From contig CP060223.1 of assembly GCA_023898465.1 (NCBI GenBank), forward strand, positions 544,001 through 608,000: a stretch of DNA of 64,000 nucleotides, in the 5' to 3' direction. This document shows positions 696 to 26,518 of this stretch, piece after piece; positions within the stretch are counted from its first letter, which is position 1; each line of letters opens with the position of its first letter. The notes beneath the pieces were generated by a model that ran no database searches, had not been told where the DNA came from, and saw nothing but the letters and a program-made list of their open reading frames with translations. Source of the DNA: Candidatus Nomurabacteria bacterium. Its GTDB lineage: Bacteria > Patescibacteriota > Patescibacteriia > HK-STAS-PATE-3. The position numbers and the translations under genes are program-made.

Positions 696-2465
696 TTATG
701 TAAATTTGATAACCTGCCCAGGTTGAAGAGACTTACCTGATTGCGTCTGTGGCTGACTATGTTTCTCTTGTGCCTGAACAGACTTTGACTGCTCAGCTTG
801 CTTCGGAGTATTTTTGGCTGGCTGACTCTTTTCCTGAGGTTGCTTCTTCTTAGGCTTCGCTGTGAATTGCACAGGACCTTTACTCAGCGCCTCGTGTAAG
901 CTAATTTCTTTTGGTGGCTCAGGAGCTACTTCACGCAACTGCTCAGGCTCAGGTGCCGTTTGTGTAAAATTCGGTCGATCGTTTCTTCCCTGCTCTCGCT
1001 CATTGCGTGGACGGGAGCTGTTTTGATTACCTTGAGGATTTGGTTGACGATTTCGGTCATTCCCGCCTGATCGTTGTCGAGATCCGCCGCCTTGATTTTG
1101 ACGCGGTCCACTTCCCCCTCGACGATCATTTCCACCCCTATTACCGCCGCTACGATTTCCGCCACCCTGGGAACCCTGTCCGAGGAAGATTTCATCAACT
1201 CCAGTCCATCGGCGGATTTTATCTTCTACAATCTCTCGCTTCTTAGCATAGCGCTCACGTGACACCTCAATCACTTTTTGCCCATTACCGGTTGGACCGC
1301 TCACTGGCTCCAGAGTTGTAGCGGAAAAAGGCTCAGAAGCTACTCCATCAATCATTAAGCGGAGATAAATATCGTACTTGGTCAGGTTTACTAAATCAGT
1401 CTCAGTGAAGGTGGGATCAAACTCTTTAGCCAAAAACTCTGCATCAGCGGCACCAACACGGAAACACACGATCGATCCGACGTTGCCAAAAACAGCCGCG
1501 CGAACTTGCTCATCTAACTGCTCAATATACTGGTGAGCCATGATAAGATTTAAGCGATACTTACGCGCCTCTGACAAAATGTTGGCAAAGCTCTCAGTGG
1601 CAAAGTTTTGAAATTCGTCAACATAGAGGAAAAAATCTTTACGATCTTTTTCCGCAATGTCTACGCGACTCATGGCCGCCAACTGAATCTTGGTAATCAT
1701 CATACCACCCAGCAAAGCTGCATTATCTTCACCAATACGGCCTTTGGAAAGGTTCAGTAAGACAATCTTTTGCTCGTCCATCAATTGCCGCAAATCAAAA
1801 GTACTCTTCGGCTGGCCAATGATATTACGAATCATTGATGAGGAAAGAAATTGACCAATCTTGTTTTGGATAGGTGAAACAGCTTCGGTACGGAATTGGT
1901 TAGCGTATTGGCCGAATTCCTCATGCCAGAAAGCCTTCACAATAGGATCAGTTAGCTTCTCCACCACTTTTGATCGATAGTCGTTGTCGACGAGAATACG
2001 AGGAATACCCAAAAGTGTTGACCCAGGATACTCAATCAAGGAGAGAATACTATTGCGCAAAATGTATTCCAATCGAGGTCCCCATGAGTCGCTCCACATT
2101 TTTTTAAACACCGAAACAAGACCCGAGGCTACTAAGTGGCGGTGGGCAGGGTTTACACTTTCTAAGACGTTGAAGGCTACCGGATAATCTACATCAGCCG
2201 GATTAATATACACCACATCATTAATTCGATGTGAAGGAATGTAATCTAAAATCTTTTCCACAAAGTCACCGTGCGGATCAATCACAGCTAAGCCATGACC
2301 AGCTCGCACATCCTGGATCATCATATTTTCAAGCACCGTCGTCTTACCCATACCGGTCTTACCGATAAAGTACATGTGACGGCGTCGATCATCTATTCTA
2401 ATACCAAAGCGCCGCTGCTGATTGCGGAAATTCGTTTTAGCAAAAAAATTAATATCTTCACTCAT
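696..2465 (-). CDS. VirD4/TraG/TraD-like type IV coupling-protein ATPase (FtsK/HerA superfamily). It has no N-terminal TM segment and carries a long disordered RGG/KQ-rich C-terminal tail.
   Basis: Walker A is YFIGKTGMGKTT and Walker B/DEFQ is LYVDEFQNF. The block ...RKYRLNLIMAHQYIEQLDE...GNVGSIVCFRVG matches the T4CP C-terminal (TraM-recognition) region. The tail (about 190 aa) is GGNRGG/RQ-rich then KQ-rich. Confidence 0.7.
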   Translation of the reverse strand: MSEDINFFAKTNFRNQQRRFGIRIDDRRRHMYFIGKTGMGKTTVLENMMIQDVRAGHGLAVIDPHGDFVEKILDYIPSHRINDVVYINPADVDYPVAFNVLESVNPAHRHLVASGLVSVFKKMWSDSWGPRLEYILRNSILSLIEYPGSTLLGIPRILVDNDYRSKVVEKLTDPIVKAFWHEEFGQYANQFRTEAVSPIQNKIGQFLSSSMIRNIIGQPKSTFDLRQLMDEQKIVLLNLSKGRIGEDNAALLGGMMITKIQLAAMSRVDIAEKDRKDFFLYVDEFQNFATESFANILSEARKYRLNLIMAHQYIEQLDEQVRAAVFGNVGSIVCFRVGAADAEFLAKEFDPTFTETDLVNLTKYDIYLRLMIDGVASEPFSATTLEPVSGPTGNGQKVIEVSRERYAKKREIVEDKIRRWTGVDEIFLGQGSQGGGNRSGGNRGGNDRRGGSGPRQNQGGGSRQRSGGNDRNRQPNPQGNQNSSRPRNEREQGRNDRPNFTQTAPEPEQLREVAPEPPKEISLHEALSKGPVQFTAKPKKKQPQEKSQPAKNTPKQAEQSKSVQAQEKHSQPQTQSGKSLQPGQVIKFT

Positions 2466-2468
2466 GGA

Positions 2469-3887
2469 TTATATTGGGAGATTACTGGGCGGTTGATCCT
2501 TTTCCTCGGCGTCCGAACTGAGCACCTCTTGATCAGGGTCCACCGGCACGGACTGAACTTGCTTTGCTCGACGAATTGGCACCACTTCAACTGGTAAACT
2601 GCTTGGAGGTTCAGCGCGGCGAGCTTCTGTCTTCTGCACTAATGGAGCTTTCACGTTCACTACTGGGAAGTGATAAATGGTGGCAAGCTCTTCAATGTTC
2701 AGCACATAGGGATCAGCACCGGTCGACATGTCACGATTTTGGAAGGCTCGTAAAATTCGCTTCTTCTTAGTGGCAATCCGTTTTTCTTTACCCAAGTATT
2801 TTGCTTTTGGCTTTGTCTTCTTATCGACTTTGAAGCCATTCATGTCCAGGGTATTAAATTGCTTTAAGGCTCCGGTAATACCTGGCACGCGATCCTTGGA
2901 AAAAGAATCGCCTTCGCCTAAGTATACAATACGCATTTTACAATCGAAATAGAGCTTGGCGGTCTTGTACGAAATCGCTTCAATAACTGCTTTATCGTTT
3001 GGCGTTAAGTGACTCATGATAGAAGCCTCTTTTGAATCCGAGGATTCCTCTTTACCAAAAGGACTGACAAGGTCAGCGGTAAAGGTTTCAGTCAAGCCAC
3101 TGGCAACCTGTTTTGGTAGCCAAAGCACATTATCAAGCAAGCCTCCACCACCTCCACTTGATCCATAGGTTGCCTTAGCGAGCTTCTTAATAATTCCCCG
3201 AGCTCCATCCAGCCACGAATCATCATCTGGTGGCACAATCATTGTCTGAATCCAAAGCTGCTCACCTGGTCGTAAGCGGCTCATATATTCAAGCAGTGAT
3301 GCCATCGGATCAAGCAGCTGCTGCGTCATCGTATGCTCAAAAGCCGGATAGGTGCGGATCGGGTAATAATCCTTTTGACGCAACACAATATCCGCTCCCC
3401 AGAGATCGTACTCTTCGTTTGGAAACTGGGCGACAAACTGCTGGGTGTAGTCCTCTACTTCGCTAATTTCCGCGTCTGGATACTGTGCGTAAAAAGCCGA
3501 CTCAACTAAATCACGATATTGAATAGGAATCCGCACGAGATATTGGATAAAGCCGCCGATGCTGATAATTTCAAAGCTGAGCGGTGGCTGAAACTCTCCC
3601 TTAATATTTTTTTCGTACCAGGAGGGTGCTGACTCAACACCATGGATGTGCGCAAAAGCTGACTCGAGCGCCTTCGGTGTCTGCTCAGTTTCACGTGGTA
3701 CATCAATCGCTAAAATGACGTACTCAATAGTAGACGCAAAACGCTCCTGGGCGTAACCAGTCCATAGCTTGAAGCCTCCCCAAAACAACGCAACGATAAT
3801 AATAAGCCAGCCGCCATGTGTAAAGAGAAACCAGGTGATGGCGAAAGGGTTAGAAAATTCGCTGAGGAAGGAAAAATCAATTGTCAT
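2469..3887 (-). CDS. Hypothetical membrane protein with N-terminal TM helices and a soluble domain of about 430 aa. Probable partner of the downstream ATPase.
   Basis: Hydrophobic FAITWFLFTHGGWLIIIVALFWGGF near the N-terminus. There is a 3-nt gap to the ATPase gene, on the same strand. No family recognised. Confidence 0.6.
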   Translation of the reverse strand: MTIDFSFLSEFSNPFAITWFLFTHGGWLIIIVALFWGGFKLWTGYAQERFASTIEYVILAIDVPRETEQTPKALESAFAHIHGVESAPSWYEKNIKGEFQPPLSFEIISIGGFIQYLVRIPIQYRDLVESAFYAQYPDAEISEVEDYTQQFVAQFPNEEYDLWGADIVLRQKDYYPIRTYPAFEHTMTQQLLDPMASLLEYMSRLRPGEQLWIQTMIVPPDDDSWLDGARGIIKKLAKATYGSSGGGGGLLDNVLWLPKQVASGLTETFTADLVSPFGKEESSDSKEASIMSHLTPNDKAVIEAISYKTAKLYFDCKMRIVYLGEGDSFSKDRVPGITGALKQFNTLDMNGFKVDKKTKPKAKYLGKEKRIATKKKRILRAFQNRDMSTGADPYVLNIEELATIYHFPVVNVKAPLVQKTEARRAEPPSSLPVEVVPIRRAKQVQSVPVDPDQEVLSSDAEEKDQPPSNLPI

Positions 3888-7870: not shown

Positions 7871-9292
7871 TTAATCCTGCACTACCACTTTGGTTCCTAT
7901 TGGCGCCCACTCATACACCCACTTTGCATTCGATTCTGAGATATTAATGCAGCCATGGCTCATAGGATGACCAAAGTTATTATGCCAATACGCGGTGTGC
8001 AGATAGTAATGTGGAGTGAAATTAAGATTCCACTTCACGTCCTTAATATCGTAGTTGTCCGGATGCTGCGGGCCGTAGGTCCACTCATAGTCCATGACCG
8101 GCACTTTGCGATAAATCGCGAACTCACCTTTTGGTGAAGGATAGCGCGCTACTCCGCTGGAGATGAGGAAGCTATTTTGGAGGACTCCATCGTCATAGGC
8201 ATATAAGCGCTGCTCAGAAAGATCCACCACAATGCGTTTCCCTACCTGATCCACACTTGCAACGACCAAGCGATTTGGCCCAGTCACAATTTCGTCTTCA
8301 CCATCTGCATCAATATCGCCAGCGGCAATGAAGAGGCCGCCACGGAAATCTCCACTATAGGCAAAGAAGTCGCGCAGGTATTCGCCCTGCGCAGTGAAGG
8401 CACGTACGTGTGGTCCACCGTTTCCATTGGCTGCTACGAGTAATTCATCGCGACCATCAAAATCTAAATCCGCTCCAGCAATATTTACCCCACCACGGAA
8501 CGCTAGCGGAAAGGCGATGAACTCACTAATGATAGGGCGATCTGGTGCTACGTCATATACCTTCACCCAAGCATGGCCAAAGCGATGCAGCGCGAAAAGA
8601 ATTTCGTCATCACCATCACCATTCACATCCGCAGTAGCCACACTTAACCCGCCGCGTTCGTATTTTGCAAATGGCCAAAAGTCCAGACCTTGATATTCAC
8701 CATCAAGTGAAAAAAGTCTAGCTTGGTTTCCGCTATCAAAACCCGAAGCAGTAATAATCATACCAGTGCCGCTACCATTGAGATCGCCACAAGCAACAGT
8801 AACTCCGCCACGAAAAGCGCTGTCGTAGGCCATGAAGCTAGAAAGCTCCTCGCCTTCCATGGTGTAGACCTTCACATTTGGTCCGCCGCCGCGACGTGGA
8901 CCGGTCACGATTTCTGCAATACCGTCATTATTCAAATCACAACTCGCCACGTAAATACCTTTTCGGAACGCATCCATATACGCATAGAAGCTGCTGAGCT
9001 TTACTCCCTCGCTCGTGAAGACTTGCACGTTTGGTCCGCCGCCTGGACCCGCTCCCACAATTATTTCATCTTTACCATCTCCGTTTACATCTCCAGTCGC
9101 TACGCTTGCTCCACCTTGAAAGGCTTCAGTGAAACCGTAAAACTGATTTACCTGACTAAAGTGCGTATCAAAAATTCTTATCTCAGGTGAAAGAGAGAGC
9201 TGCACTGCCTGAGCGCCTGAAACAAAAAACACCCCGAAGAGGAGCGTCGTTATGAGTAAGGTATACTTCTGAGCTAGAAAATACTTTTGCAT
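7871..9292 (-). CDS. Secreted FG-GAP repeat protein fused to a C-terminal L,D-transpeptidase (YkuD) domain.
   Basis: Signal peptide from MQKYFLAQKYTLLITTLLFGVFFVSGAQA. Repeated GDVNGDGKDEIIVGAGPGGGPNVQVF-type FG-GAP units. C-terminal HxxxxxxxSHGCINI catalytic motif of L,D-transpeptidases. Confidence 0.8.
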   Translation of the reverse strand: MQKYFLAQKYTLLITTLLFGVFFVSGAQAVQLSLSPEIRIFDTHFSQVNQFYGFTEAFQGGASVATGDVNGDGKDEIIVGAGPGGGPNVQVFTSEGVKLSSFYAYMDAFRKGIYVASCDLNNDGIAEIVTGPRRGGGPNVKVYTMEGEELSSFMAYDSAFRGGVTVACGDLNGSGTGMIITASGFDSGNQARLFSLDGEYQGLDFWPFAKYERGGLSVATADVNGDGDDEILFALHRFGHAWVKVYDVAPDRPIISEFIAFPLAFRGGVNIAGADLDFDGRDELLVAANGNGGPHVRAFTAQGEYLRDFFAYSGDFRGGLFIAAGDIDADGEDEIVTGPNRLVVASVDQVGKRIVVDLSEQRLYAYDDGVLQNSFLISSGVARYPSPKGEFAIYRKVPVMDYEWTYGPQHPDNYDIKDVKWNLNFTPHYYLHTAYWHNNFGHPMSHGCINISESNAKWVYEWAPIGTKVVVQD

Positions 9293-9300
9293 TTGTTTGT

Positions 9301-9422
9301 CTTTCCAAAAGAAAAGGGAGAACGGGTGAGGAATCAATTTGGACTCGCTAGAAAGCTAGTAAACCCGAAGTGATTCCTCACCCGATAAGACTCTTTTTGT
9401 GTCTCTTTTTGTTTTTGGAAAG
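9301..9422. repeat. Nested imperfect inverted repeat (13-bp perfect core GGGTGAGGAATCA/TGATTCCTCACCC plus outer CTTTCCAAAA/TTTTGGAAAG arms) in the divergent intergenic region.
   Basis: Read directly. Core arms at 9324-9336 and 9371-9383. The outer arm at 9301-9310 is mirrored at 9413-9422. Confidence 0.6.
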
Positions 9423-9473
9423 AGCCGACTGCATACATCATAGCACACTTTTCGCTTCTCGTCAACATATATC

Positions 9474-9501
9474 TTGAGTTCGCTGCTCCTTTTGCTACAA
9501 T
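9474..9501 (+). promoter_or_regulatory. Sigma-70-type promoter TTGAGT-N16-TACAAT upstream of sodN.
   Basis: TTGAGT at 9474-9479 and TACAAT at 9496-9501. ATG at 9534. Confidence 0.5.
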
Positions 9502-9533
9502 AGCAGCACTCAGCATTTACTCTCGACACTTCT

Positions 9534-9986
9534 ATGAAGAAAAAAATTAAGAGCATTTTCTCTAAAGTACTATTTGGCGAGGAGGCTTCGGCCCACTGTG
9601 ATGGACCTTGTGGAGTATACGATGGTGCCTCCGCGGAAATTGCCGCGCGAGCAGCAGTGAGCATGACTAAGAAGCTCCTTGAGCTCACAACGCCCACTCC
9701 GCAATCAAGTCCAGAAGATAAACTCAACTACCACCACACCGTTGCCCGCTATACACTGATCAAAGAGGAGCAAAGTGAAATTGCCAAGCGCGAACTTCTC
9801 ATACTCTGGACTGATTTTTTCAAACCAGAGCATCTCGATGCTTTTCCTGATTTGCATGAGTTCATTTGGAAGCTTGCCAAACAGTGTTCATATGTGAAGC
9901 AGCACGTTGATCTCGAAGCAGCTGAAAAAATGCACGCTGATATCATGAAGCTGGCTGAGATGCATCATCAGGCCTCTCACCACTAA
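9534..9986 (+). CDS. sodN: Nickel superoxide dismutase precursor (NiSOD).
   Basis: Ni-hook motif HCDGPCGVYDGA follows a 20-aa propeptide. The four-helix-bundle length is right. The SodX-like peptidase is immediately downstream. Confidence 0.85.
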   Translation: MKKKIKSIFSKVLFGEEASAHCDGPCGVYDGASAEIAARAAVSMTKKLLELTTPTPQSSPEDKLNYHHTVARYTLIKEEQSEIAKRELLILWTDFFKPEHLDAFPDLHEFIWKLAKQCSYVKQHVDLEAAEKMHADIMKLAEMHHQASHH

Positions 9987-9987
9987 A

Positions 9988-10287
9988 ATGCATTTTAATC
10001 TACCTCGACATATTGTTGTGCGAGGTGAAAGTATGCTGCCTGCGCTAAAGCCCGGGCAGCATTGCTTTGTGCTCCCCTACTACTTTAGCTCTCCAAAAAT
10101 AAATGATGTGGTGCTGGCTCGCGATCCACGAAATAATGCCTTGATCATAAAACGCATCGCTGAAGTACAAAAAATGGGTGAACACAATTTGTATACACTG
10201 CATGGTGACAACGCTGCGAAAAGTACTGACAGTCGCCAGCTTGGTCAATGGGATAGGAAGAATATCCTAGGTAGAATTTTTGTCTAA
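9988..10287 (+). CDS. sodX: S26-family signal-peptidase-like NiSOD maturation protease (SodX-like).
   Basis: GESMLP..L serine box (compare SGSMEPTL) and an S26 lysine region. There is a 1-nt gap after sodN. Confidence 0.7.
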   Translation: MHFNLPRHIVVRGESMLPALKPGQHCFVLPYYFSSPKINDVVLARDPRNNALIIKRIAEVQKMGEHNLYTLHGDNAAKSTDSRQLGQWDRKNILGRIFV

Positions 10288-10821
10288 GCGCTGCTTCTTA
10301 TGTCTACCTTGCAGCACGATAACAAAGCCTATAGTGAAAGCTAACAAGACTCCTCCAGCAATACTGAGAATAAGCACTCCCCGGGCAATTTCTTCCGGGT
10401 CAGAAGCTTTTGCCGCAACACGAAATGAAAAAGTTTTTTCTACCAACTCGCCATCAGCGGCAATTACTTTTACATTCAGGTCATAGGTCCCGGGCAAGCT
10501 AAAGCGATAAAGGAAATCAGGACTATTCGCACTCATATTAACAGCTGCTAAAACGATGTCATCTTGAGAAAGACTAACCTGTACGTTCTGGGCTAACTGA
10601 TCACGAATTTCTTCACCGTCCAAGACAAAAACAAACTTGGTGCTTTGCAGTATCATCACATCTTCTGCATCAGAACGTAGATCAAGCGTATGTGTCTGAG
10701 CAAAGACCAATTGTCCCCACAACAATCCGAGCATTAAACTGATAAGCAACAGTAGTCCCGGATATACACGGGTAAGAAAAAAAATATCTTGTCGACCTAA
10801 TCTCATAATAATCTCTTTCAC
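10267..10821 (-). CDS. Hypothetical secreted, membrane-anchored protein (signal/TM, beta-rich domain, C-terminal TM).
   Basis: Hydrophobic N- and C-terminal segments. No motif recognised. Confidence 0.5.
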   Translation of the reverse strand: MKEIIMRLGRQDIFFLTRVYPGLLLLISLMLGLLWGQLVFAQTHTLDLRSDAEDVMILQSTKFVFVLDGEEIRDQLAQNVQVSLSQDDIVLAAVNMSANSPDFLYRFSLPGTYDLNVKVIAADGELVEKTFSFRVAAKASDPEEIARGVLILSIAGGVLLAFTIGFVIVLQGRHKKQRLDKNST

Positions 10822-14966: not shown

Positions 14967-15050
14967 TCAGCTTATAGCATAATTCGTCCAATAGCACCCA
15001 ACATGCTTGCGTGCCGAACCCCCGCACCATGTTAGATGCGGGGAAAGGCA

Positions 15051-15091
15051 TGTAAAGTCGACTTGACATATAAAAACTTGCCGTTTACACT
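15051..15091 (+). promoter_or_regulatory. Promoter TTGACA-N17-TACACT, overlapped by the 18-bp palindrome TGTAAAGTCGACTTGACA (second copy of the XRE operator).
   Basis: Read directly. The block is 22/25 identical to 14351-14376. Confidence 0.5.
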
Positions 15092-15122
15092 AAGGGCAAT
15101 TACTTTTAAACCCGGAGATCCC

Positions 15123-15758
15123 ATGCTTAACATCAAAGATCAACGAGGCCTCAGCGGTCTAACCATTGCAGCGATAATCACCATTATTGCAGTTGCTTTG
15201 GGGTTAATTATTTATTTTACCAGCACAAATTCAAGCAACAGCAACGAAAACGAATCCATGATGCAAGATGAAAATACAAACGAAGCGATGATGGATGACC
15301 ACATGGATGACAATACAAATGAGGCCATGGTGGACGACGAAGAACACATGATGGAAGACGACACAAACACCAATAGCGACGCCATGATGGAGGATGACGA
15401 GCATGCAATGGAAAAAGATGGCAGCGCAAACACTAACTCGGTTAGCGCCGCTCCTGGTCAATACATTGATTACACGCCAGCTGCTTTTGCTAGCGCCAGC
15501 GATGAAAAGCGTGTGCTTTTTTTTCACGCCACCTGGTGTCCAACCTGCAAAGCTGCGAACGAAGCATTTACATCGCGGCTTGATGAGATCCCTTCAGGAG
15601 TTGTCATTTTAAAAACTGATTACGATTCCCAAACTGCCTTAAAAAATAAGTACGACATCACCTACCAGCACACTTTTGTACAGGTCGATGCCGATGGAAA
15701 TGAATTAGCAAAATGGAATGGTGGAGACGTTGACCTCTTAGCAAGGAAGCTGCAATAA
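15123..15758 (+). CDS. Membrane-anchored thioredoxin-family protein (WCPTC) with a Met/Asp/Glu/His-rich low-complexity linker.
   Basis: TM helix LTIAAIITIIAVALGLIIYF. Linker NEAMMDDHMDDNTNEAMVDDEEHMMEDD... C-terminal thioredoxin fold RVLFFHATWCPTCKAA. Confidence 0.7.
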   Translation: MLNIKDQRGLSGLTIAAIITIIAVALGLIIYFTSTNSSNSNENESMMQDENTNEAMMDDHMDDNTNEAMVDDEEHMMEDDTNTNSDAMMEDDEHAMEKDGSANTNSVSAAPGQYIDYTPAAFASASDEKRVLFFHATWCPTCKAANEAFTSRLDEIPSGVVILKTDYDSQTALKNKYDITYQHTFVQVDADGNELAKWNGGDVDLLARKLQ

Positions 15759-15762
15759 ATCC

Positions 15763-17496
15763 ATGCTATTACTTATTGGATTTGCCTTTCTCGCCGGTGT
15801 CGTCACCGTCCTCTCACCCTGTATTCTGCCAATACTACCGGTTATCCTGACTGGATCAGTGACTGGCAGTAAACGGAGGCCGCTCGGAATTGTTCTCGGC
15901 TTTATTTTAAGCTTCAGCTTTTTTACACTTTTCCTGGCCACCATTGTGCAGTCTACTGGAATCTCAGCCGGGGCTTTACGGACCTTCTCAATTGTCGTGC
16001 TCTTCGGCTTTGGGGTTAGCCTCCTCTTCCCTCGAGTCCAAGTCTGGCTAGAGCAACTTTTCTCGCGCCTTTCTAGCCGAGCACCCCGTCAAGCAAATCG
16101 AACTGGCTTTTGGGGCGGCATCCTCATCGGACTTAGTATTGGCTTGCTATGGACGCCTTGTGTCGGCCCAATCTTGGCATCGGTTATTTCACTCGCGCTC
16201 ACCGGCTCAGTAAGCAGCGGCGCCGCATTTATCACCCTAGCCTATGCTATCGGAACAGCTATTCCAATGCTGGCGATCATGTATGGCGGACGTCATCTCT
16301 TGCAGCGAGTGCCTTGGCTAATGCAAAACACCGGTCGCATCCAAAAGGCTTTTGGTGTGTTCATGATTATTACGGCAATTGGTATTTCAGCCAACCTTGA
16401 TAGGAAATTTCAAACCTTTATTCTCGATACCTTCCCAAACTATGGCATTGGCTTAACTAAGATTGAGGACAACGAGCAAGTCCAGCAAGAATTAGATAAG
16501 CTTAATGCTGAGCCAAATGAAGATATCCAAGGCAAGCCTATGAACGAAGCAACCCAGAGCAAAAAAGAAGACACGCCCGCGCCTGAGCTCATCCCAGGCG
16601 GTGAATGGTTTAATTCCGATCCACTAAGCTTAAAAGAGCTGCGTGGTAAAGTGGTACTGGTTGATTTTTGGACCTACAGTTGCATTAATTGCCAGCGCAC
16701 CCTCCCCTACCTCAGGGACTGGTGGGAGAAATACAAGGATGATGGACTGGTCATCATTGGCGTACACACACCTGAATTTGAATTTGAAAAAGATCCTGAT
16801 AACGTGGCAAAAGCATTGCGGGATTACGAGATTGATTATCCGGTCATGCAGGATAACAACTTCGCTACCTGGTCAGCATATAAAAATCGCTATTGGCCCA
16901 GGAAGTATTTAGTCGATCAAAATGGTAACATCATCTATGATCACATTGGCGAAGGTGGCTATGAAGAAACTGAACGACAAATCCAAGAGGCATTACAAAA
17001 CGCAGGCAAGTCAGTCAATGCAAGTATTAGCACCGAAACAACGGATACTGATTTCACCCAAATTGCTACACCGGAGCTTTATTTTGGCTCAGCTCGAAAT
17101 CAATACCTCGGCAACGGTACTCAATTTCAAACTGGATCCCAAGAGCTCACTCTGCCGGATGATATGAAAAAAAATATGCTCTACCTAAGCGGAACTTGGA
17201 ACTTCCAGGACGAGTACGCAACAAATTCAAATACGGCAAGTATTACACTTCCCTATCAAGCGAAGAATGTCTACATGGTGGCAGCAGCGGATAACGCTGT
17301 GCAGCTGCAACTCAAGTTGGATGGAGAAAACCTTAGCTCAACTCAAACAGGTGCAGATGTCGATAAAAACGGTCAGGTTACCATACAAGCCCACACCCTT
17401 TATCATCTCATTAGCACAGAAAACTACGGCAGCCATACACTGACGATTGAAATCCCAGCCGCTGGACTAGAGGCTTACACTTTTACCTTCGGGTAA
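15763..17496 (+). CDS. CcdA/DsbD-type transmembrane electron-transfer domain fused to a TlpA/ResA-like thioredoxin domain, plus an extra C-terminal domain of about 170 aa.
   Basis: N-terminal LSPCILPILPV (CcdA Cys motif) and 6 TM helices. VVLVDFWTYSCINCQRTLPYL is a TlpA-type CxxC. 4-nt gap from the upstream thioredoxin gene. Confidence 0.8.
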   Translation: MLLLIGFAFLAGVVTVLSPCILPILPVILTGSVTGSKRRPLGIVLGFILSFSFFTLFLATIVQSTGISAGALRTFSIVVLFGFGVSLLFPRVQVWLEQLFSRLSSRAPRQANRTGFWGGILIGLSIGLLWTPCVGPILASVISLALTGSVSSGAAFITLAYAIGTAIPMLAIMYGGRHLLQRVPWLMQNTGRIQKAFGVFMIITAIGISANLDRKFQTFILDTFPNYGIGLTKIEDNEQVQQELDKLNAEPNEDIQGKPMNEATQSKKEDTPAPELIPGGEWFNSDPLSLKELRGKVVLVDFWTYSCINCQRTLPYLRDWWEKYKDDGLVIIGVHTPEFEFEKDPDNVAKALRDYEIDYPVMQDNNFATWSAYKNRYWPRKYLVDQNGNIIYDHIGEGGYEETERQIQEALQNAGKSVNASISTETTDTDFTQIATPELYFGSARNQYLGNGTQFQTGSQELTLPDDMKKNMLYLSGTWNFQDEYATNSNTASITLPYQAKNVYMVAAADNAVQLQLKLDGENLSSTQTGADVDKNGQVTIQAHTLYHLISTENYGSHTLTIEIPAAGLEAYTFTFG

Positions 17497-17501
17497 AGTA
17501 G

Positions 17502-17948
17502 CTATACGGTTGTTTGCATTTTGCGCATTTCGTTACGGCGCAGAAGCAGGCTCACTACAAAAATTCCGAGGTAGAAAAAGAATCCATACACACAAGCTGG
17601 GAGGGATTCTGGCTTCTCCGCAGCCAACCACAATTCGTATACCGAGAGACTCAGTGCAAAAAGCGTGCCCACCAAACCTAACCAAACTAAAGCATTGGCG
17701 ATACCTTTTGAACTTCCCTTCACCCAATAGATTGCGGATAAAATTCCAATAGCCACATACATGGCAAATCCATATACGCAGTTTGGTAAGCCAACAATAT
17801 ATACAGGGTTCACTCCGCAGCTAATAATGGTTTGACCACATCCGTTCGCAAACAAATTTACATAGCTTAAATAGCCTGACAAGAGACCGCCCAACACCAC
17901 GAAAAGCAAAATCAAAGTTAAGGCCAACGAAGATTTCATATGTTTCAA
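17502..17948 (-). CDS. 4-TM membrane protein with four conserved Cys (C-x7-C loop pair and two LP[NA]CVYGF repeats). Possible thiol-disulfide oxidoreductase.
   Basis: NGCGQTIISCG. GLPNCVYGFAMY and SLPACVYGFFFY form an internal repeat. No CxxC, so not a canonical DsbB or VKOR. Confidence 0.5.
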   Translation of the reverse strand: MKHMKSSLALTLILLFVVLGGLLSGYLSYVNLFANGCGQTIISCGVNPVYIVGLPNCVYGFAMYVAIGILSAIYWVKGSSKGIANALVWLGLVGTLFALSLSVYELWLAAEKPESLPACVYGFFFYLGIFVVSLLLRRNEMRKMQTTV

Positions 17949-20071: not shown

Positions 20072-20494
20072 TCAACGAGGATTGACCGGCTGCTTGGGCG
20101 AAGACTTGGGCTTCGAAGAAGGCTTTTTGTCCACTCCATTGGACCGAGGCCTTCTCGACTTTCCGGTCCTTGTGGACGGCAGTCTGAAAGCTTCTTTCAC
20201 TCGCCCCGCCGCCAATTCCAGCTTGCTGGGCTTGGCAGACGAGCTATTCACCTCGGGTGCTTGCTTGGCGTCAGCGAAGTTCTGTGCGACCTCGCCATGA
20301 GCTTGAGCTGAAACACCGGATGCCCGACGATTCTCATCGCGCACCCGATCGTAGATCTCTTCCCGGTGGACAGCGACATTCTTCGGCGCATCAACGCCAA
20401 TCTTGACCTGTCCACCCTTCACATCCAGGATGATGATCTTGACCCGATCACCTACCCGGATATTCTCCCCCAACTTCCTTGTCAAAATGAGCAT
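20072..20494 (-). CDS. csrA: CsrA-like carbon storage regulator with a basic K/S/P-rich C-terminal extension of about 75 aa. GC-rich patch.
   Basis: [48 protein letters not shown] is near-canonical CsrA. The ORF's 25 upstream residues are an extension artefact. The tail is PKQPVNPR-rich. Confidence 0.7.
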
Positions 20495-20665
20495 GACTCT
20501 TGTACTCCATTGCTTGGCTGTGTGGCCATCCTTGGTTTCTCGGGCGCCAAAAACGCCCTCCTGTTGCAAACGGAGATACTACGCGAGTCTCTCTATTTTG
20601 TCAACCATGCACCGAACCTGGTACGGAGTGAGTCCCACACCAAACTTGGTGTGGGGTCAACCACT

Positions 20666-25711: not shown

Positions 25712-26518
25712 TTATTCCAAAATTCGACTTAAGACTACACCAATAAGGTAAGCTGATCCAGAAGCAATTGCGCCGACCGCTAACATCTCTAAGCCACCCT
25801 TCCAAAACGTGATGGTGGAAATTTTTGATCGAAAGGCGCCAGTAAAAAACATGGTTAATCCGGTCAGCACCATAGAGGCAGTGAAGGCAAACATACCAGC
25901 ATAGCCAAAGAGGAAAGGAAGTAGAGGAACGAAACCAGCCAGCGCAAAAGCAATAAAAGTGGCTAGACCGTGTTTAGCTGGATGGTAATCATCGTCTTTA
26001 AAAATACCTAATTCCTCTTTCATCATTATTTCAATCCATATCTCACGATTGCTGCACACGGTAGCAACCGCGTTATCAAGTGCCTGACCCTGAAATCCCC
26101 AATGCGCAAAAATCTCCTTGATCTCGTGTTGCTCAATTTCAGGAAAGTTATCAATTTCCCAGTTCTCTTTTTCGTGCTGCTTTTTTTCGTATTCACCCTC
26201 TGAGCGTTTACCTAAGTAATTACCTAAGCCCATTGATAAGCCATCACCGAGAAGATTGGCCGCACCAATGATGATAATTACCGTAGCAGCTAAATCGGCG
26301 CCCGCGGCACCAGCCACTACTGCAAAAGTCGTGACGAGACCATCGCTGGCTCCAAATACAATATCAGCCAGGTAGCGCCCTGTAGCTCGCTGGTGAAAAA
26401 CATCCTCTACCTGATGGTGGGTATAATTTTCCGGTAAGTTTAGCACCTGCTTCTTACGCTGCAGCGCTTCTTCTAGCTCTTTAGGAAATGTGTTTGGGAT
26501 ATTTTTCATAGCAGGCAC
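25712..26518 (-). CDS. VIT1/CCC1-family iron/manganese transporter.
   Basis: IVFGASDGLVTTFAVVAGAAGA, a soluble metal-binding helical insert (EEYEKKQHEKE), C-terminal TM helices. Confidence 0.75.
   Translation of the reverse strand: MPAMKNIPNTFPKELEEALQRKKQVLNLPENYTHHQVEDVFHQRATGRYLADIVFGASDGLVTTFAVVAGAAGADLAATVIIIIGAANLLGDGLSMGLGNYLGKRSEGEYEKKQHEKENWEIDNFPEIEQHEIKEIFAHWGFQGQALDNAVATVCSNREIWIEIMMKEELGIFKDDDYHPAKHGLATFIAFALAGFVPLLPFLFGYAGMFAFTASMVLTGLTMFFTGAFRSKISTITFWKGGLEMLAVGAIASGSAYLIGVVLSRILE

What the first reader, a model, noticed from the sequence alone, without database searches (positions are those of the whole stretch)
9474..10287. Ni-superoxide dismutase with its SodX maturation peptidase
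The mature N-terminus HCDGPCGVY (Ni-hook) follows a 20-aa leader. The S26-family peptidase that cleaves it is encoded 1 nt downstream. NiSOD is best known from actinomycetes, cyanobacteria and marine lineages. In a small, otherwise minimal genome it implies nickel availability, and it may have been acquired laterally. No Ni importer is visible in this window. The propeptide is longer than the classical 14 aa.
Basis: partly seen in the sequence, partly recalled or inferred. Interest (0 to 1): 0.55.

Follow-up and report, generated by a model that had tools for sequence, protein, structure and literature searches.

The report
Nickel superoxide dismutase with its protease
This is an ordinary, already annotated gene pair for a nickel-dependent superoxide dismutase and the small protease that activates it, sitting in a tiny-genome (Patescibacteria) bacterium, a group in which this enzyme has been reported before.

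Summary
Window 9534-9986 (+) encodes a 150-aa NiSOD precursor: a 20-aa leader ending A-S-A, then HCDGPCGVY. It scores well above the curated cut-offs (Pfam 127 bits vs 25; TIGR02753 150 vs 90), and His21 aligns with His1 of the Streptomyces crystal structures. One nucleotide downstream, 9988-10287 (+) encodes a 99-aa S26 peptidase with the Ser15/Lys55 dyad. I read it as the maturation protease SodX. The side claims are weaker. A 20-aa leader is the commonest length among the top 120 homologues (81/120). No nickel importer or second SOD lies in the window. I found no sign of recent lateral transfer: composition matches the window, and synteny is identical in four further distinct relatives with SodN as low as 59% identical. 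The clade has 99% bootstrap support and sits beside (64%) a clade holding nearly all other Patescibacteria SodN sampled. Both proteins are in GenBank (USN53063.1, USN53064.1, Ca. Nomurabacteria, 1.08-Mb contig). NiSOD in Patescibacteria is published (bioRxiv 10.1101/2021.01.12.426412). Verdict: correct, already known, low interest. Seen in passing: a conserved structured leader RNA upstream of the neighbouring L,D-transpeptidase gene, and a His-rich SodN C-terminus.

The parts
9474..9501 (+). Promoter-like site for sodN-sodX: -35 TTGAGT (9474-9479), 16-nt spacer, extended -10 TG-c-TACAAT (ends 9501). The role is inferred.
   Evidence: 9 of 12 consensus matches plus TG. The number of such sites in the region does not exceed the shuffles (4 vs 2.5 +/- 1.6), so this is weak evidence. 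It lies back-to-back with the minus-strand ldt promoter.
9534..9986 (+). sodN, the 150-aa NiSOD precursor (GenBank USN53063.1).
   Evidence: Pfam PF09055 127.3 bits (cut-off 25). TIGR02753 150.1 bits (cut-off 90). PDB 1q0d/1t6u E about 4e-17. Exact GenBank match.
9534..9593 (+). 20-codon leader (propeptide) MKKKIKSIFSKVLFGEEASA, with the predicted cleavage after Ala20 (A-S-A|H).
   Evidence: Position -1 is Ala in 170/170 distinct homologue leaders and -3 is Ala or Val in 163/170. A 20-aa length occurs in 81/120 homologues.
9594..9620 (+). Ni-hook HCDGPCGVY (mature residues 1-9): His1, Cys2, Asp3, Pro5, Cys6, Gly7, Tyr9.
   Evidence: Query H21 aligns with residue 1 of mature Streptomyces NiSOD. 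H21, C22, D23, P25, C26, G27 and Y29 are invariant in alignment A1. The identical 9-mer occurs in 112/120 top homologues.
9963..9983 (+). His-rich C-terminal tail MHHQASHH (4 His in the last 8 residues). It is clade-specific and its function is unknown.
   Evidence: at least 3 His in the last 12 residues in 4 of 8 clade members and in 0 of the other 112 top homologues.
9988..10287 (+). sodX, a 99-aa S26-family peptidase (GenBank USN53064.1) and the predicted NiSOD maturation protease. Ser15 codon is 10030-10032 and Lys55 codon is 10150-10152.
   Evidence: Pfam S26 46.8 bits (cut-off 22.9). The best NCBIfam hit is TIGR02754 sod_Ni_protease at 57.4 bits, below its 63.25 cut-off. A custom HMM of sodN-adjacent peptidases from other genomes gives 82.5 bits, E 3e-25. 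The G-x-S-M-x-P Ser is in 67/67 and the Lys in 99% of these sequences. The AF2 model matches type I signal peptidases.

Best explanation
A two-gene sodN-sodX unit in a Patescibacteria (Ca. Nomurabacteria-labelled) chromosome of about 1.08 Mb. The genes are probably co-transcribed from the promoter-like site at 9474-9501 and translationally coupled across the 1-nt spacer (inferred). SodN is made as an inactive 150-aa precursor. The small, anchor-less Ser15/Lys55 peptidase SodX cuts after Ala20 (A-S-A|H), which frees the alpha-amine of His21 (inferred by homology). The new N-terminus HCDGPCGVY folds around Ni as the Ni-hook, using the His1 amine and imidazole, the Cys2 amide and thiolate, and the Cys6 thiolate. 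This is known from Streptomyces structures 1T6U/1Q0D and rests on my own knowledge. The helical-bundle enzyme then dismutates superoxide in the cytoplasm through Ni(II)/Ni(III) cycling. The pair has been inherited vertically within this lineage. It gives an iron-independent, very small SOD to an organism with a reduced genome. Nickel must enter by a route not encoded in this window.
For: SodN identity: Pfam 127 bits and TIGR02753 150 bits, both far above curated cut-offs. It aligns to solved NiSOD with H21 as mature H1. All hook residues are invariant in A1. The leader ends in the family-wide A/V-x-A motif. SodX identity: it passes the S26 gathering score. The best NCBIfam match is the NiSOD maturation protease. 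A custom HMM gives 82.5 bits, against 17 bits for the only other hit in the window, LexA. The catalytic Ser and Lys and the GDN..STDSR box are conserved. The predicted fold matches type I signal peptidases. A G-x-S-M-x-P ORF follows sodN in 69/83 related loci. The nearest non-clade homologues (47% identity) also lie next to Sod_Ni genes. No predicted TM segment in SodX and a non-hydrophobic leader fit cytoplasmic processing. Vertical inheritance: synteny SecF-SecD-Ldt | sodN-sodX | membrane protein-CYTH...DNA_alkylation-PDDEXK is identical in the relatives L003, L085, L086 and L087/L088 (L001/L002 carry the identical SodN). GC, GC3 and codon usage are typical of the window. The clade has 99% bootstrap support. 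Prior knowledge: GenBank annotation. NiSOD in Patescibacteria is published. sodX as the maturation protease is described in PMC8346466.
Against: SodX falls 6 bits short of the TIGR02754 equivalog cut-off, and GenBank names it only 'S26 family signal peptidase'. There is no Shine-Dalgarno sequence before either start codon. The promoter call is a weak consensus match, and no terminator was found. Cleavage, Ni binding and activity all rest on homology. No Ni importer is visible in 64 kb. The sister relationship to the clade holding most other Patescibacteria SodN has only 64% NJ bootstrap. That sister clade also contains MAGs titled 'uncultured Gammaproteobacteria' or 'bacterium', and one Patescibacteria-labelled SodN (L036) falls outside it.
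Confidence: 0.93

Rival explanations
1. The 99-aa S26 protein is the cell's general type I signal peptidase (LepB/SipS-like), placed next to sodN by chance or doing both jobs, and is not a dedicated SodX.
For: It is below the TIGR02754 cut-off, and TIGR02227 sigpep_I_bact scores 48.4 bits, just above that model's own cut-off of 47. GenBank names it generically. No other S26 peptidase lies in the 64-kb window. Small genomes do merge functions.
Against: It has no predicted transmembrane anchor and only 99 residues, whereas LepB-type enzymes are membrane-anchored. The best NCBIfam hit is the NiSOD protease. An HMM built only from sodN-adjacent peptidases scores it at 82.5 bits. The same pairing occurs in 69/83 loci and in every syntenic relative. 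The nearest outside homologues are also sodN-linked.
Confidence: 0.04
2. The sodN-sodX pair is a recent lateral acquisition into this genome, for example from marine Myxococcota, Planctomycetota or Chloroflexota, which give the highest identities outside the clade.
For: The best hits outside the clade (55-60% identity) are non-Patescibacteria MAGs, while most other Patescibacteria SodN are only 38-46% identical. The hook is the HCDGPCGVY type shared with those bacteria and not the HCD[I/V]PCGIY type of most Patescibacteria. The published NiSOD phylogeny infers at least 3 transfers from Chloroflexota into Patescibacteria.
Against: GC, GC3 and codon usage cannot be told apart from neighbouring genes (z between -0.95 and +0.72; 74% of same-length chunks from other genes lie further from the mean codon usage). 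The chromosomal position and flanking genes are the same in relatives whose SodN has diverged to 59% identity. The clade has 99% support and in the NJ tree groups with the mainly Patescibacteria clade, not inside the marine group. No mobile-element genes flank the pair.
Confidence: 0.05
3. The gene is a decayed or non-functional NiSOD relic in a mostly anaerobic organism.
For: None directly. Patescibacteria are often described from anoxic settings.
Against: The ORFs are intact and all 25 invariant columns of A1 are retained, including the full hook. The catalytic dyad of SodX is intact. The pair is conserved across relatives spanning roughly 40% SodN divergence, which implies purifying selection.
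Confidence: 0.02

Closest known systems
Streptomyces coelicolor / S. seoulensis SodN with SodX (PDB 1T6U, 1Q0D)
   Same: Precursor with an N-terminal leader ending in Ala. The mature N-terminus is H-C-D-x-P-C-G-V-Y. The alignment covers 113 residues at E about 4e-17 with H21 as His1. A dedicated S26 peptidase gene is involved.
   Different: The leader is 20 aa against 14 aa. Hook position 4 is Gly against Leu. There is a 13-residue insertion between the first two aligned conserved segments, a third conserved Cys (C118), and a His-rich C-terminus. Identity is only 33%. Whether a Nur/sodF-type regulatory circuit exists here was not examined.
Marine/cyanobacterial-type NiSOD (Prochlorococcus, Synechococcus, marine Myxococcota, Planctomycetota, Acidimicrobiia; about 157 aa) with adjacent sodX
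   Same: Identical hook HCDGPCGVY and the modal 20-aa leader. sodX lies immediately downstream. SodN identity is 50-60%. Functional dependence on the cognate peptidase was shown for Prochlorococcus (Eitinger 2004, J Bacteriol; from my own knowledge).
   Different: The window protein lacks the C-terminal '...FW.SKGR....Y.TAS' extension and ends in MHHQASHH instead. It has DGA and not DPA after the hook. SodX lacks the N-terminal hydrophobic extension seen in its nearest outside homologues. No sodT/NiCoT-type transporter lies nearby.
Patescibacteria NiSOD clusters described by Sutherland et al. (bioRxiv 10.1101/2021.01.12.426412)
   Same: NiSOD encoded in reduced-genome Patescibacteria, which that paper explicitly reports as at least three clusters. 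In my NJ tree the window clade is sister to the main Patescibacteria clade.
   Different: Most Patescibacteria SodN in my sample carry HCD[I/V]PCGIY and are 38-46% identical. The window clade keeps the G/A-type hook. I could not tell which of the published clusters this clade corresponds to.

Membership tests
NiSOD (SodN; Pfam PF09055, NCBIfam TIGR02753) | Profile score above the curated family thresholds | tested here: met
   PF09055 127.3 bits vs 25. TIGR02753 (equivalog) 150.1 bits vs 90.
NiSOD (SodN; Pfam PF09055, NCBIfam TIGR02753) | Ni-hook H-C-x-x-P-C-G-x-Y at the mature N-terminus, with His1, Cys2 and Cys6 as ligands | tested here: met
   HCDGPCGVY at residues 21-29. H21 aligns to residue 1 of mature 1q0d. 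H21, C22, D23, P25, C26, G27 and Y29 are invariant in A1.
NiSOD (SodN; Pfam PF09055, NCBIfam TIGR02753) | Made as a precursor with a cleavable N-terminal leader ending in small residues (A/V-x-A) directly before His1 | tested here: met
   The leader is 20 aa and ends A-S-A. Position -1 is Ala in 170/170 and -3 is Ala or Val in 163/170 homologue leaders.
NiSOD (SodN; Pfam PF09055, NCBIfam TIGR02753) | Four-helix-bundle subunit that assembles into a hexamer | not tested
   Only the sequence alignment to 1q0d/1t6u over 113 residues. I made no structure prediction for SodN.
NiSOD (SodN; Pfam PF09055, NCBIfam TIGR02753) | Binds Ni and dismutates superoxide | not testable with these tools
   Needs recombinant expression with SodX and Ni, metal analysis and an activity assay.
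SodX, NiSOD maturation protease (NCBIfam TIGR02754; MEROPS S26) | Reaches the TIGR02754 equivalog cut-off (an operational threshold, not a biological feature) | tested here: not met
   57.4 bits vs 63.25. It is still the best NCBIfam hit and covers profile positions 3-88 of 90. The shortfall goes with a clade-specific 3-4-residue insertion (MGE) and the lack of an N-terminal extension.
SodX, NiSOD maturation protease (NCBIfam TIGR02754; MEROPS S26) | S26 family membership and fold | tested here: met
   PF10502 46.8 bits vs 22.9. The AF2 model (pLDDT 74) has type I signal peptidases as its top PDB matches (4wvj, 7p2p, 4n31, 1t7d), followed by LexA.
SodX, NiSOD maturation protease (NCBIfam TIGR02754; MEROPS S26) | Ser/Lys catalytic dyad (G-x-S-M-x-P Ser; K-R Lys) and the GDN..S.DSR box | tested here: met
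   Ser15 in GESMLP (67/67), Lys55 in IKRI (99%), GDNAAKSTDSRQLG. These are also invariant in A5.
SodX, NiSOD maturation protease (NCBIfam TIGR02754; MEROPS S26) | Genetic linkage to sodN | tested here: met
   The spacer is 1 nt on the same strand. The same pairing occurs in 69/83 related loci and in all syntenic relatives, including an uncalled GTG-start ORF in L086. An HMM of sodN-adjacent peptidases gives 82.5 bits. The outside homologues P0124 and P0125 lie next to Sod_Ni genes.
SodX, NiSOD maturation protease (NCBIfam TIGR02754; MEROPS S26) | Cleaves the SodN leader at Ala|His | not testable with these tools
   Needs co-expression followed by N-terminal sequencing or intact-mass MS.

The most novel reading that the evidence does not exclude
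In this Patescibacteria clade, NiSOD has swapped the usual C-terminus for a His-rich tail (MHHQASHH). A relative also carries a HypA-like Ni-chaperone N-domain about 3 kb from sodN. Together these could mean that the tail, and in some genomes the orphan HypA domain, capture scarce nickel for the enzyme. That would make up for the lack of a dedicated Ni importer or chaperone in a minimal genome, with NiSOD as the only SOD and possibly the only Ni enzyme of the cell.
Probability: 0.08. Interest if true: 0.4.

Novelty: already known. Interest (0 to 1): 0.12.

Why it matters
It matters little beyond correct annotation. The result confirms that this reduced-genome bacterium carries a compact, iron-independent defence against superoxide, and so probably meets oxygen and has access to trace nickel. 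It also shows that the downstream 'S26 family signal peptidase' in GenBank should be read as the NiSOD maturation protease. Two practical annotation points follow. First, an automatic gene call on the same sequence begins sodX at Met16 (84 aa), which removes the catalytic Ser15. Second, the curated TIGR02754 cut-off misses this divergent Patescibacteria SodX clade. The enzyme, the pairing and their presence in Patescibacteria are all already described.

Tried and rejected
1. I read 9474 as a CDS start and rejected it, because there is an in-frame TAG and the ORF begins at 9534.
2. The Biopython NJ tree with bootstrap timed out. I replaced it with my own numpy NJ using 200 bootstraps.
3. I looked for a nickel importer or second SOD in the window. 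Pfam scans of about 60 ORFs and tblastn with Fe/Mn-SOD probes found none. The membrane transporters present are SecDF, YibE/F, VIT1, a MacB-type ABC system, a DsbD-thioredoxin fusion and MscL.
4. The convergent 184-aa membrane protein (10267-10821) has a weak CopC hit (E 0.009, below cut-off). I rejected it as a metal-binding partner because the hit is marginal, its L086 orthologue has no Pfam hit, and the His near the predicted N-terminus is not conserved.
5. A HypA-like domain seen in relative L086 has no counterpart in the window.
6. Rfam, at gathering and at permissive thresholds, gave no family for the conserved spacer element.
7. A metagenome scan with a pattern from that element returned only two chance matches inside unrelated coding regions.
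8. The word-indexed protein search for SodX returned only 9 hits, none named as a maturation protease. Context look-ups were needed instead.
9. I considered a Sec signal-peptide reading of the leader and rejected it. The leader is short and charged, and SodX has no TM segment.

Full report
OBSERVATION. On the + strand, the ORF 9534..9986 translates to MKKKIKSIFSKVLFGEEASA-HCDGPCGVYDGASAE... (150 aa). A second ORF at 9988..10287 (99 aa) begins one base after the sodN TAA stop. The reported start, 9474, is not a coding start, because 9474-9533 holds an in-frame TAG. It coincides with the -35 hexamer of a promoter-like site (TTGAGT, 16 nt, TG-c-TACAAT, 9474-9501). That consensus match is weak: 4 sites in the region against 2.5 +/- 1.6 in shuffles. 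No intrinsic terminator was found. The 3' end of sodX overlaps the stop-proximal 21 nt of a convergent membrane-protein gene (10267..10821).

IDENTITY OF SodN. Pfam Sod_Ni scores 127.3 bits (gathering 25). The NCBIfam equivalog TIGR02753 scores 150.1 bits (cut-off 90). A phmmer search of the PDB finds only Streptomyces NiSOD chains (1q0d, 1t6u and others, E about 4e-17). Query His21 aligns to residue 1 of the mature crystallised enzyme. The leader ends A-S-A. Across 170 distinct homologue leaders, position -1 is always Ala and position -3 is Ala or Val in 163. A 20-residue leader is the mode among the 120 best homologues (81/120), and the exact hook HCDGPCGVY occurs in 112/120. So 'longer than the classical 14 aa' is true only against Streptomyces.

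IDENTITY OF SodX. The 99-aa protein passes the Pfam Peptidase_S26 gathering score (46.8 vs 22.9). Its best NCBIfam match is TIGR02754, 'nickel-type superoxide dismutase maturation protease'. At 57.4 bits it falls short of the 63.25 cut-off, and generic signal peptidase I (TIGR02227) scores 48.4 against a cut-off of 47. I therefore tested it independently.

- In 69 of 83 related sodN loci, an ORF with G-x-S-M-x-P follows sodN on the same strand.
- In an alignment of 67 such proteins, the nucleophile Ser (window Ser15, GESMLP) is in 67/67 and the general-base Lys (Lys55, IKRI) in 99%. The GDN..STDSR..G box is also conserved.
- An HMM built from these proteins, with the window clade left out, scores the window protein at 82.5 bits (E 3e-25). 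The only other hit among 325 window reading frames is LexA at 17 bits.
- The nearest database homologues outside the clade (46-47% identity) also sit beside Sod_Ni genes, in unrelated organisms that encode complex I.
- An AlphaFold2 model (9-sequence alignment, mean pLDDT 74) finds type I signal peptidases as its best PDB matches (SpsB 4wvj, SEC11 7p2p, SipA 4n31, LepB 1t7d), then LexA and UmuD.

The protein has no predicted TM segment. It also lacks the hydrophobic N-terminal extension carried by most of its outside homologues. I conclude that it works as SodX and belongs with SodX by catalytic residues, fold and linkage. The missed NCBIfam cut-off is an operational shortfall of a divergent, minimal clade. 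GenBank names it only 'S26 family signal peptidase' (USN53064.1). One automatic call on the same DNA starts it at Met16 (84 aa), which deletes the catalytic Ser.

MECHANISM (shown vs inferred). Shown: the two ORFs, their family assignments, conserved catalytic and ligand residues, the 1-nt spacer, and conserved linkage. Inferred from established NiSOD biochemistry (my own knowledge, plus PMC8346466): SodX cleaves after Ala20. The freed His1 amine and imidazole, the Cys2 amide and thiolate and the Cys6 thiolate bind Ni. The enzyme cycles Ni(II)/Ni(III) to dismutate superoxide in the cytoplasm. Co-transcription and translational coupling are inferred from the spacing. Neither start codon has a recognisable Shine-Dalgarno sequence.

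GENOMIC AND EVOLUTIONARY CONTEXT. The exact SodN sequence is GenBank USN53063.1, 'MAG: superoxide dismutase, Ni [Candidatus Nomurabacteria bacterium]', on a 1,082,586-bp contig. The NCBI lineage is Patescibacteria group / Parcubacteria group. Seven homologues at 59-78% identity form a tight clade with it. The relatives with usable flanks are L003 from GCA_964637345.1, L085, L086 and L087/L088 (L001/L002 carry the identical SodN). All show the same order: TrwB-like, DUF8128, sigma-70, SecF, SecD, FG-GAP/YkuD L,D-transpeptidase | sodN, sodX | small membrane protein, CYTH-like ... DNA_alkylation, PDDEXK. In L086, sodX is present but was not called (8447..8830, GTG start).

GC (0.468 and 0.437), GC3 and codon usage of the pair lie within the spread of 36 window genes. 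In an NJ tree of 98 mature SodN sequences (137 columns, 200 bootstraps), the window clade has 99% support. It is sister, at 64%, to a 97%-supported clade that holds all but one of the other Patescibacteria-labelled sequences, mostly with HCD[I/V]PCGIY hooks (L036 falls outside it), along with several MAGs titled 'uncultured Gammaproteobacteria' or 'bacterium'. The window clade does not nest within the marine HCDGPCGVY group, even though raw identity to that group is higher (55-60% against 38-46%).

So I find no sign of recent lateral transfer. An ancient transfer into Patescibacteria, as argued by Sutherland et al. (at least three transfers from Chloroflexota), is neither confirmed nor excluded. 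My sample is thin for Dehalococcoidia, and NJ on 137 columns resolves deep nodes poorly.

NICKEL SUPPLY AND OTHER SODs. Pfam scans of essentially all window ORFs of 90 aa or more found no NiCoT, HupE/UreJ, CbiMNQO/NikMNQO or Nik ABC components. They also found no urease or hydrogenase and no Fe/Mn- or Cu/Zn-SOD. tblastn with Fe/Mn-SOD probes found nothing significant. The multi-pass membrane proteins are SecDF, YibE/F, VIT1, a MacB-type ABC pair, a DsbD-thioredoxin fusion, a VKOR/DsbB-like protein and MscL. It says nothing about the other roughly 1 Mb of the genome.

COMPARISON WITH KNOWN SYSTEMS AND NOVELTY. The pair is a standard sodN-sodX unit of the non-actinomycete type. Its differences from Streptomyces are the leader length, Gly4, a 13-residue insertion between the first two aligned conserved segments, a third Cys and 33% identity. 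Its differences from the 157-aa marine type are the missing C-terminal extension, DGA in place of DPA after the hook, and an anchor-less SodX. These are clade-level variations. NiSOD in Patescibacteria is explicitly reported, and SOD genes including sodN were surveyed in groundwater Patescibacteria. Both proteins are already annotated. Novelty: already known. Interest: low (0.12).

MOST NOVEL READING NOT EXCLUDED. The clade-specific His-rich C-terminus has at least 3 His in the last 12 residues in 4 of 8 clade members and in none of the other 112 top homologues. One relative (L086) has a HypA N-terminal domain fused to the DNA_alkylation protein about 3 kb from sodN (40.3 bits vs 28.9). Either could hint at built-in nickel capture in genomes without dedicated Ni trafficking. 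The tail is not conserved across the clade, and the HypA domain is absent from the window. I give this about 8%.

NOTICED IN PASSING. The 241-nt spacer between the probable ldt ATG (9292) and sodN (196 nt if ldt starts at the upstream TTG at 9337) contains a block that is far better conserved than the flanking proteins. On the minus strand it has these parts:

- A promoter: -35 TTGACG at 9465-9460 and -10 TATGAT at 9442-9437.
- A helix P1: GGCTCTTT at 9426-9419 paired with AAAGAGTC at 9396-9389, around an A-rich loop.
- A 14-bp perfect helix P2: 9384-9371 paired with 9336-9323, around a variable insert.
- The probable ldt ATG at 9292.

RNAalifold on five sequences keeps P2, with compensatory changes at four or more pairs. 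The G-U pairs are legal only on the minus strand. The motif occurs once in the window and only in the eight syntenic loci among 94 fetched. No Rfam family matches, and a metagenome pattern scan added nothing. It looks like a lineage-specific structured 5' leader of the L,D-transpeptidase gene and is unrelated to NiSOD.

Noticed in passing
window 9293-9465 (minus strand): A conserved structured leader lies upstream of the FG-GAP/YkuD L,D-transpeptidase gene. It has a promoter (-35 at 9465-9460, -10 at 9442-9437). Helix P1 pairs 9426-9419 with 9396-9389 around an A-rich loop. Helix P2 is a 14-bp perfect stem pairing 9384-9371 with 9336-9323 around a variable insert. It is conserved in all syntenic relatives, with compensatory changes in P2 and G-U pairs legal only on the minus strand. 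No Rfam match. It occurs once in the window. The 60-aa ORF called across it (9334..9516, minus) is probably spurious.
   Followed up: partly
window 9963-9983 (+): SodN ends in a His-rich tail, MHHQASHH. At least 3 His in the last 12 residues occur in 4 of 8 clade members and in none of the other 112 top homologues, which end in ...FW.SKGR....TAS instead. It may bind metal. This was not tested.
   Followed up: partly
L086 11342-12346 (minus): In a syntenic relative (SodN 59% identical), the DNA_alkylation-repair protein carries an N-terminal HypA (Ni-metallochaperone) domain. It starts MHD..., covers profile positions 1-69 of 112, and scores 40.3 bits against a cut-off of 28.9. No Cys residue follows it in the sequence, so it appears to lack the Zn site. 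It lies about 3 kb from sodN. The window has no counterpart.
   Followed up: partly
window 9988-10032 and L001/L002 10500-10754: An automatic gene call on the identical DNA starts sodX at Met16 (84 aa), which removes the catalytic Ser15. In L086 sodX (GTG start, 8447-8830) was not called at all. The curated TIGR02754 cut-off also misses this clade (57.4 vs 63.25 bits).
   Followed up: yes
window 10267-10287: sodX and the convergent 184-aa membrane-protein gene overlap by 21 nt at their 3' ends, and no terminator-like site lies between them. In relatives the two genes are separated by 14-25 nt or overlap by 4 nt.
   Followed up: partly
window 15036-17948: A thiol-redox cluster lies about 5 kb from sodN. 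It comprises a membrane-anchored thioredoxin (15036-15758), a DsbD/CcdA TM domain fused to AhpC/TSA-like and Thioredoxin_10 domains (15763-17496), and a VKOR/DsbB-like protein (17502-17948, scores below cut-off).
   Followed up: no
window 25712-26518 (minus) and 46485-47651 (+): A VIT1-family (Fe/Mn transporter family) protein and a YibE/F-family 8-TM protein are the only candidate metal-related permeases in the window. Neither family is known to import nickel.
   Followed up: no
window 20072-20569 (minus): The CsrA domain (residues 26-77) sits in a 165-aa maximal ORF, about 88 residues longer at the C-terminus than a typical CsrA. The true start and the nature of the extension were not examined.
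   Followed up: no
window 696-3887 (minus): A TrwB/TraD-like coupling ATPase and a DUF8128 protein lie next to a sigma-70-like gene and SecDF. The order is the same in all syntenic relatives, so this looks like a fixed chromosomal module and not a mobile element.
   Followed up: no
loci L040, L059, L065, L069, L070, L072, L074, L076, L081: MAGs titled 'uncultured Gammaproteobacteria' carry 137-155-aa SodN proteins with HCDVPCG[I/V]Y hooks. These nest inside the Patescibacteria SodN clade (97% bootstrap). Either the MAG titles are unreliable or there has been transfer between the groups.
   Followed up: no
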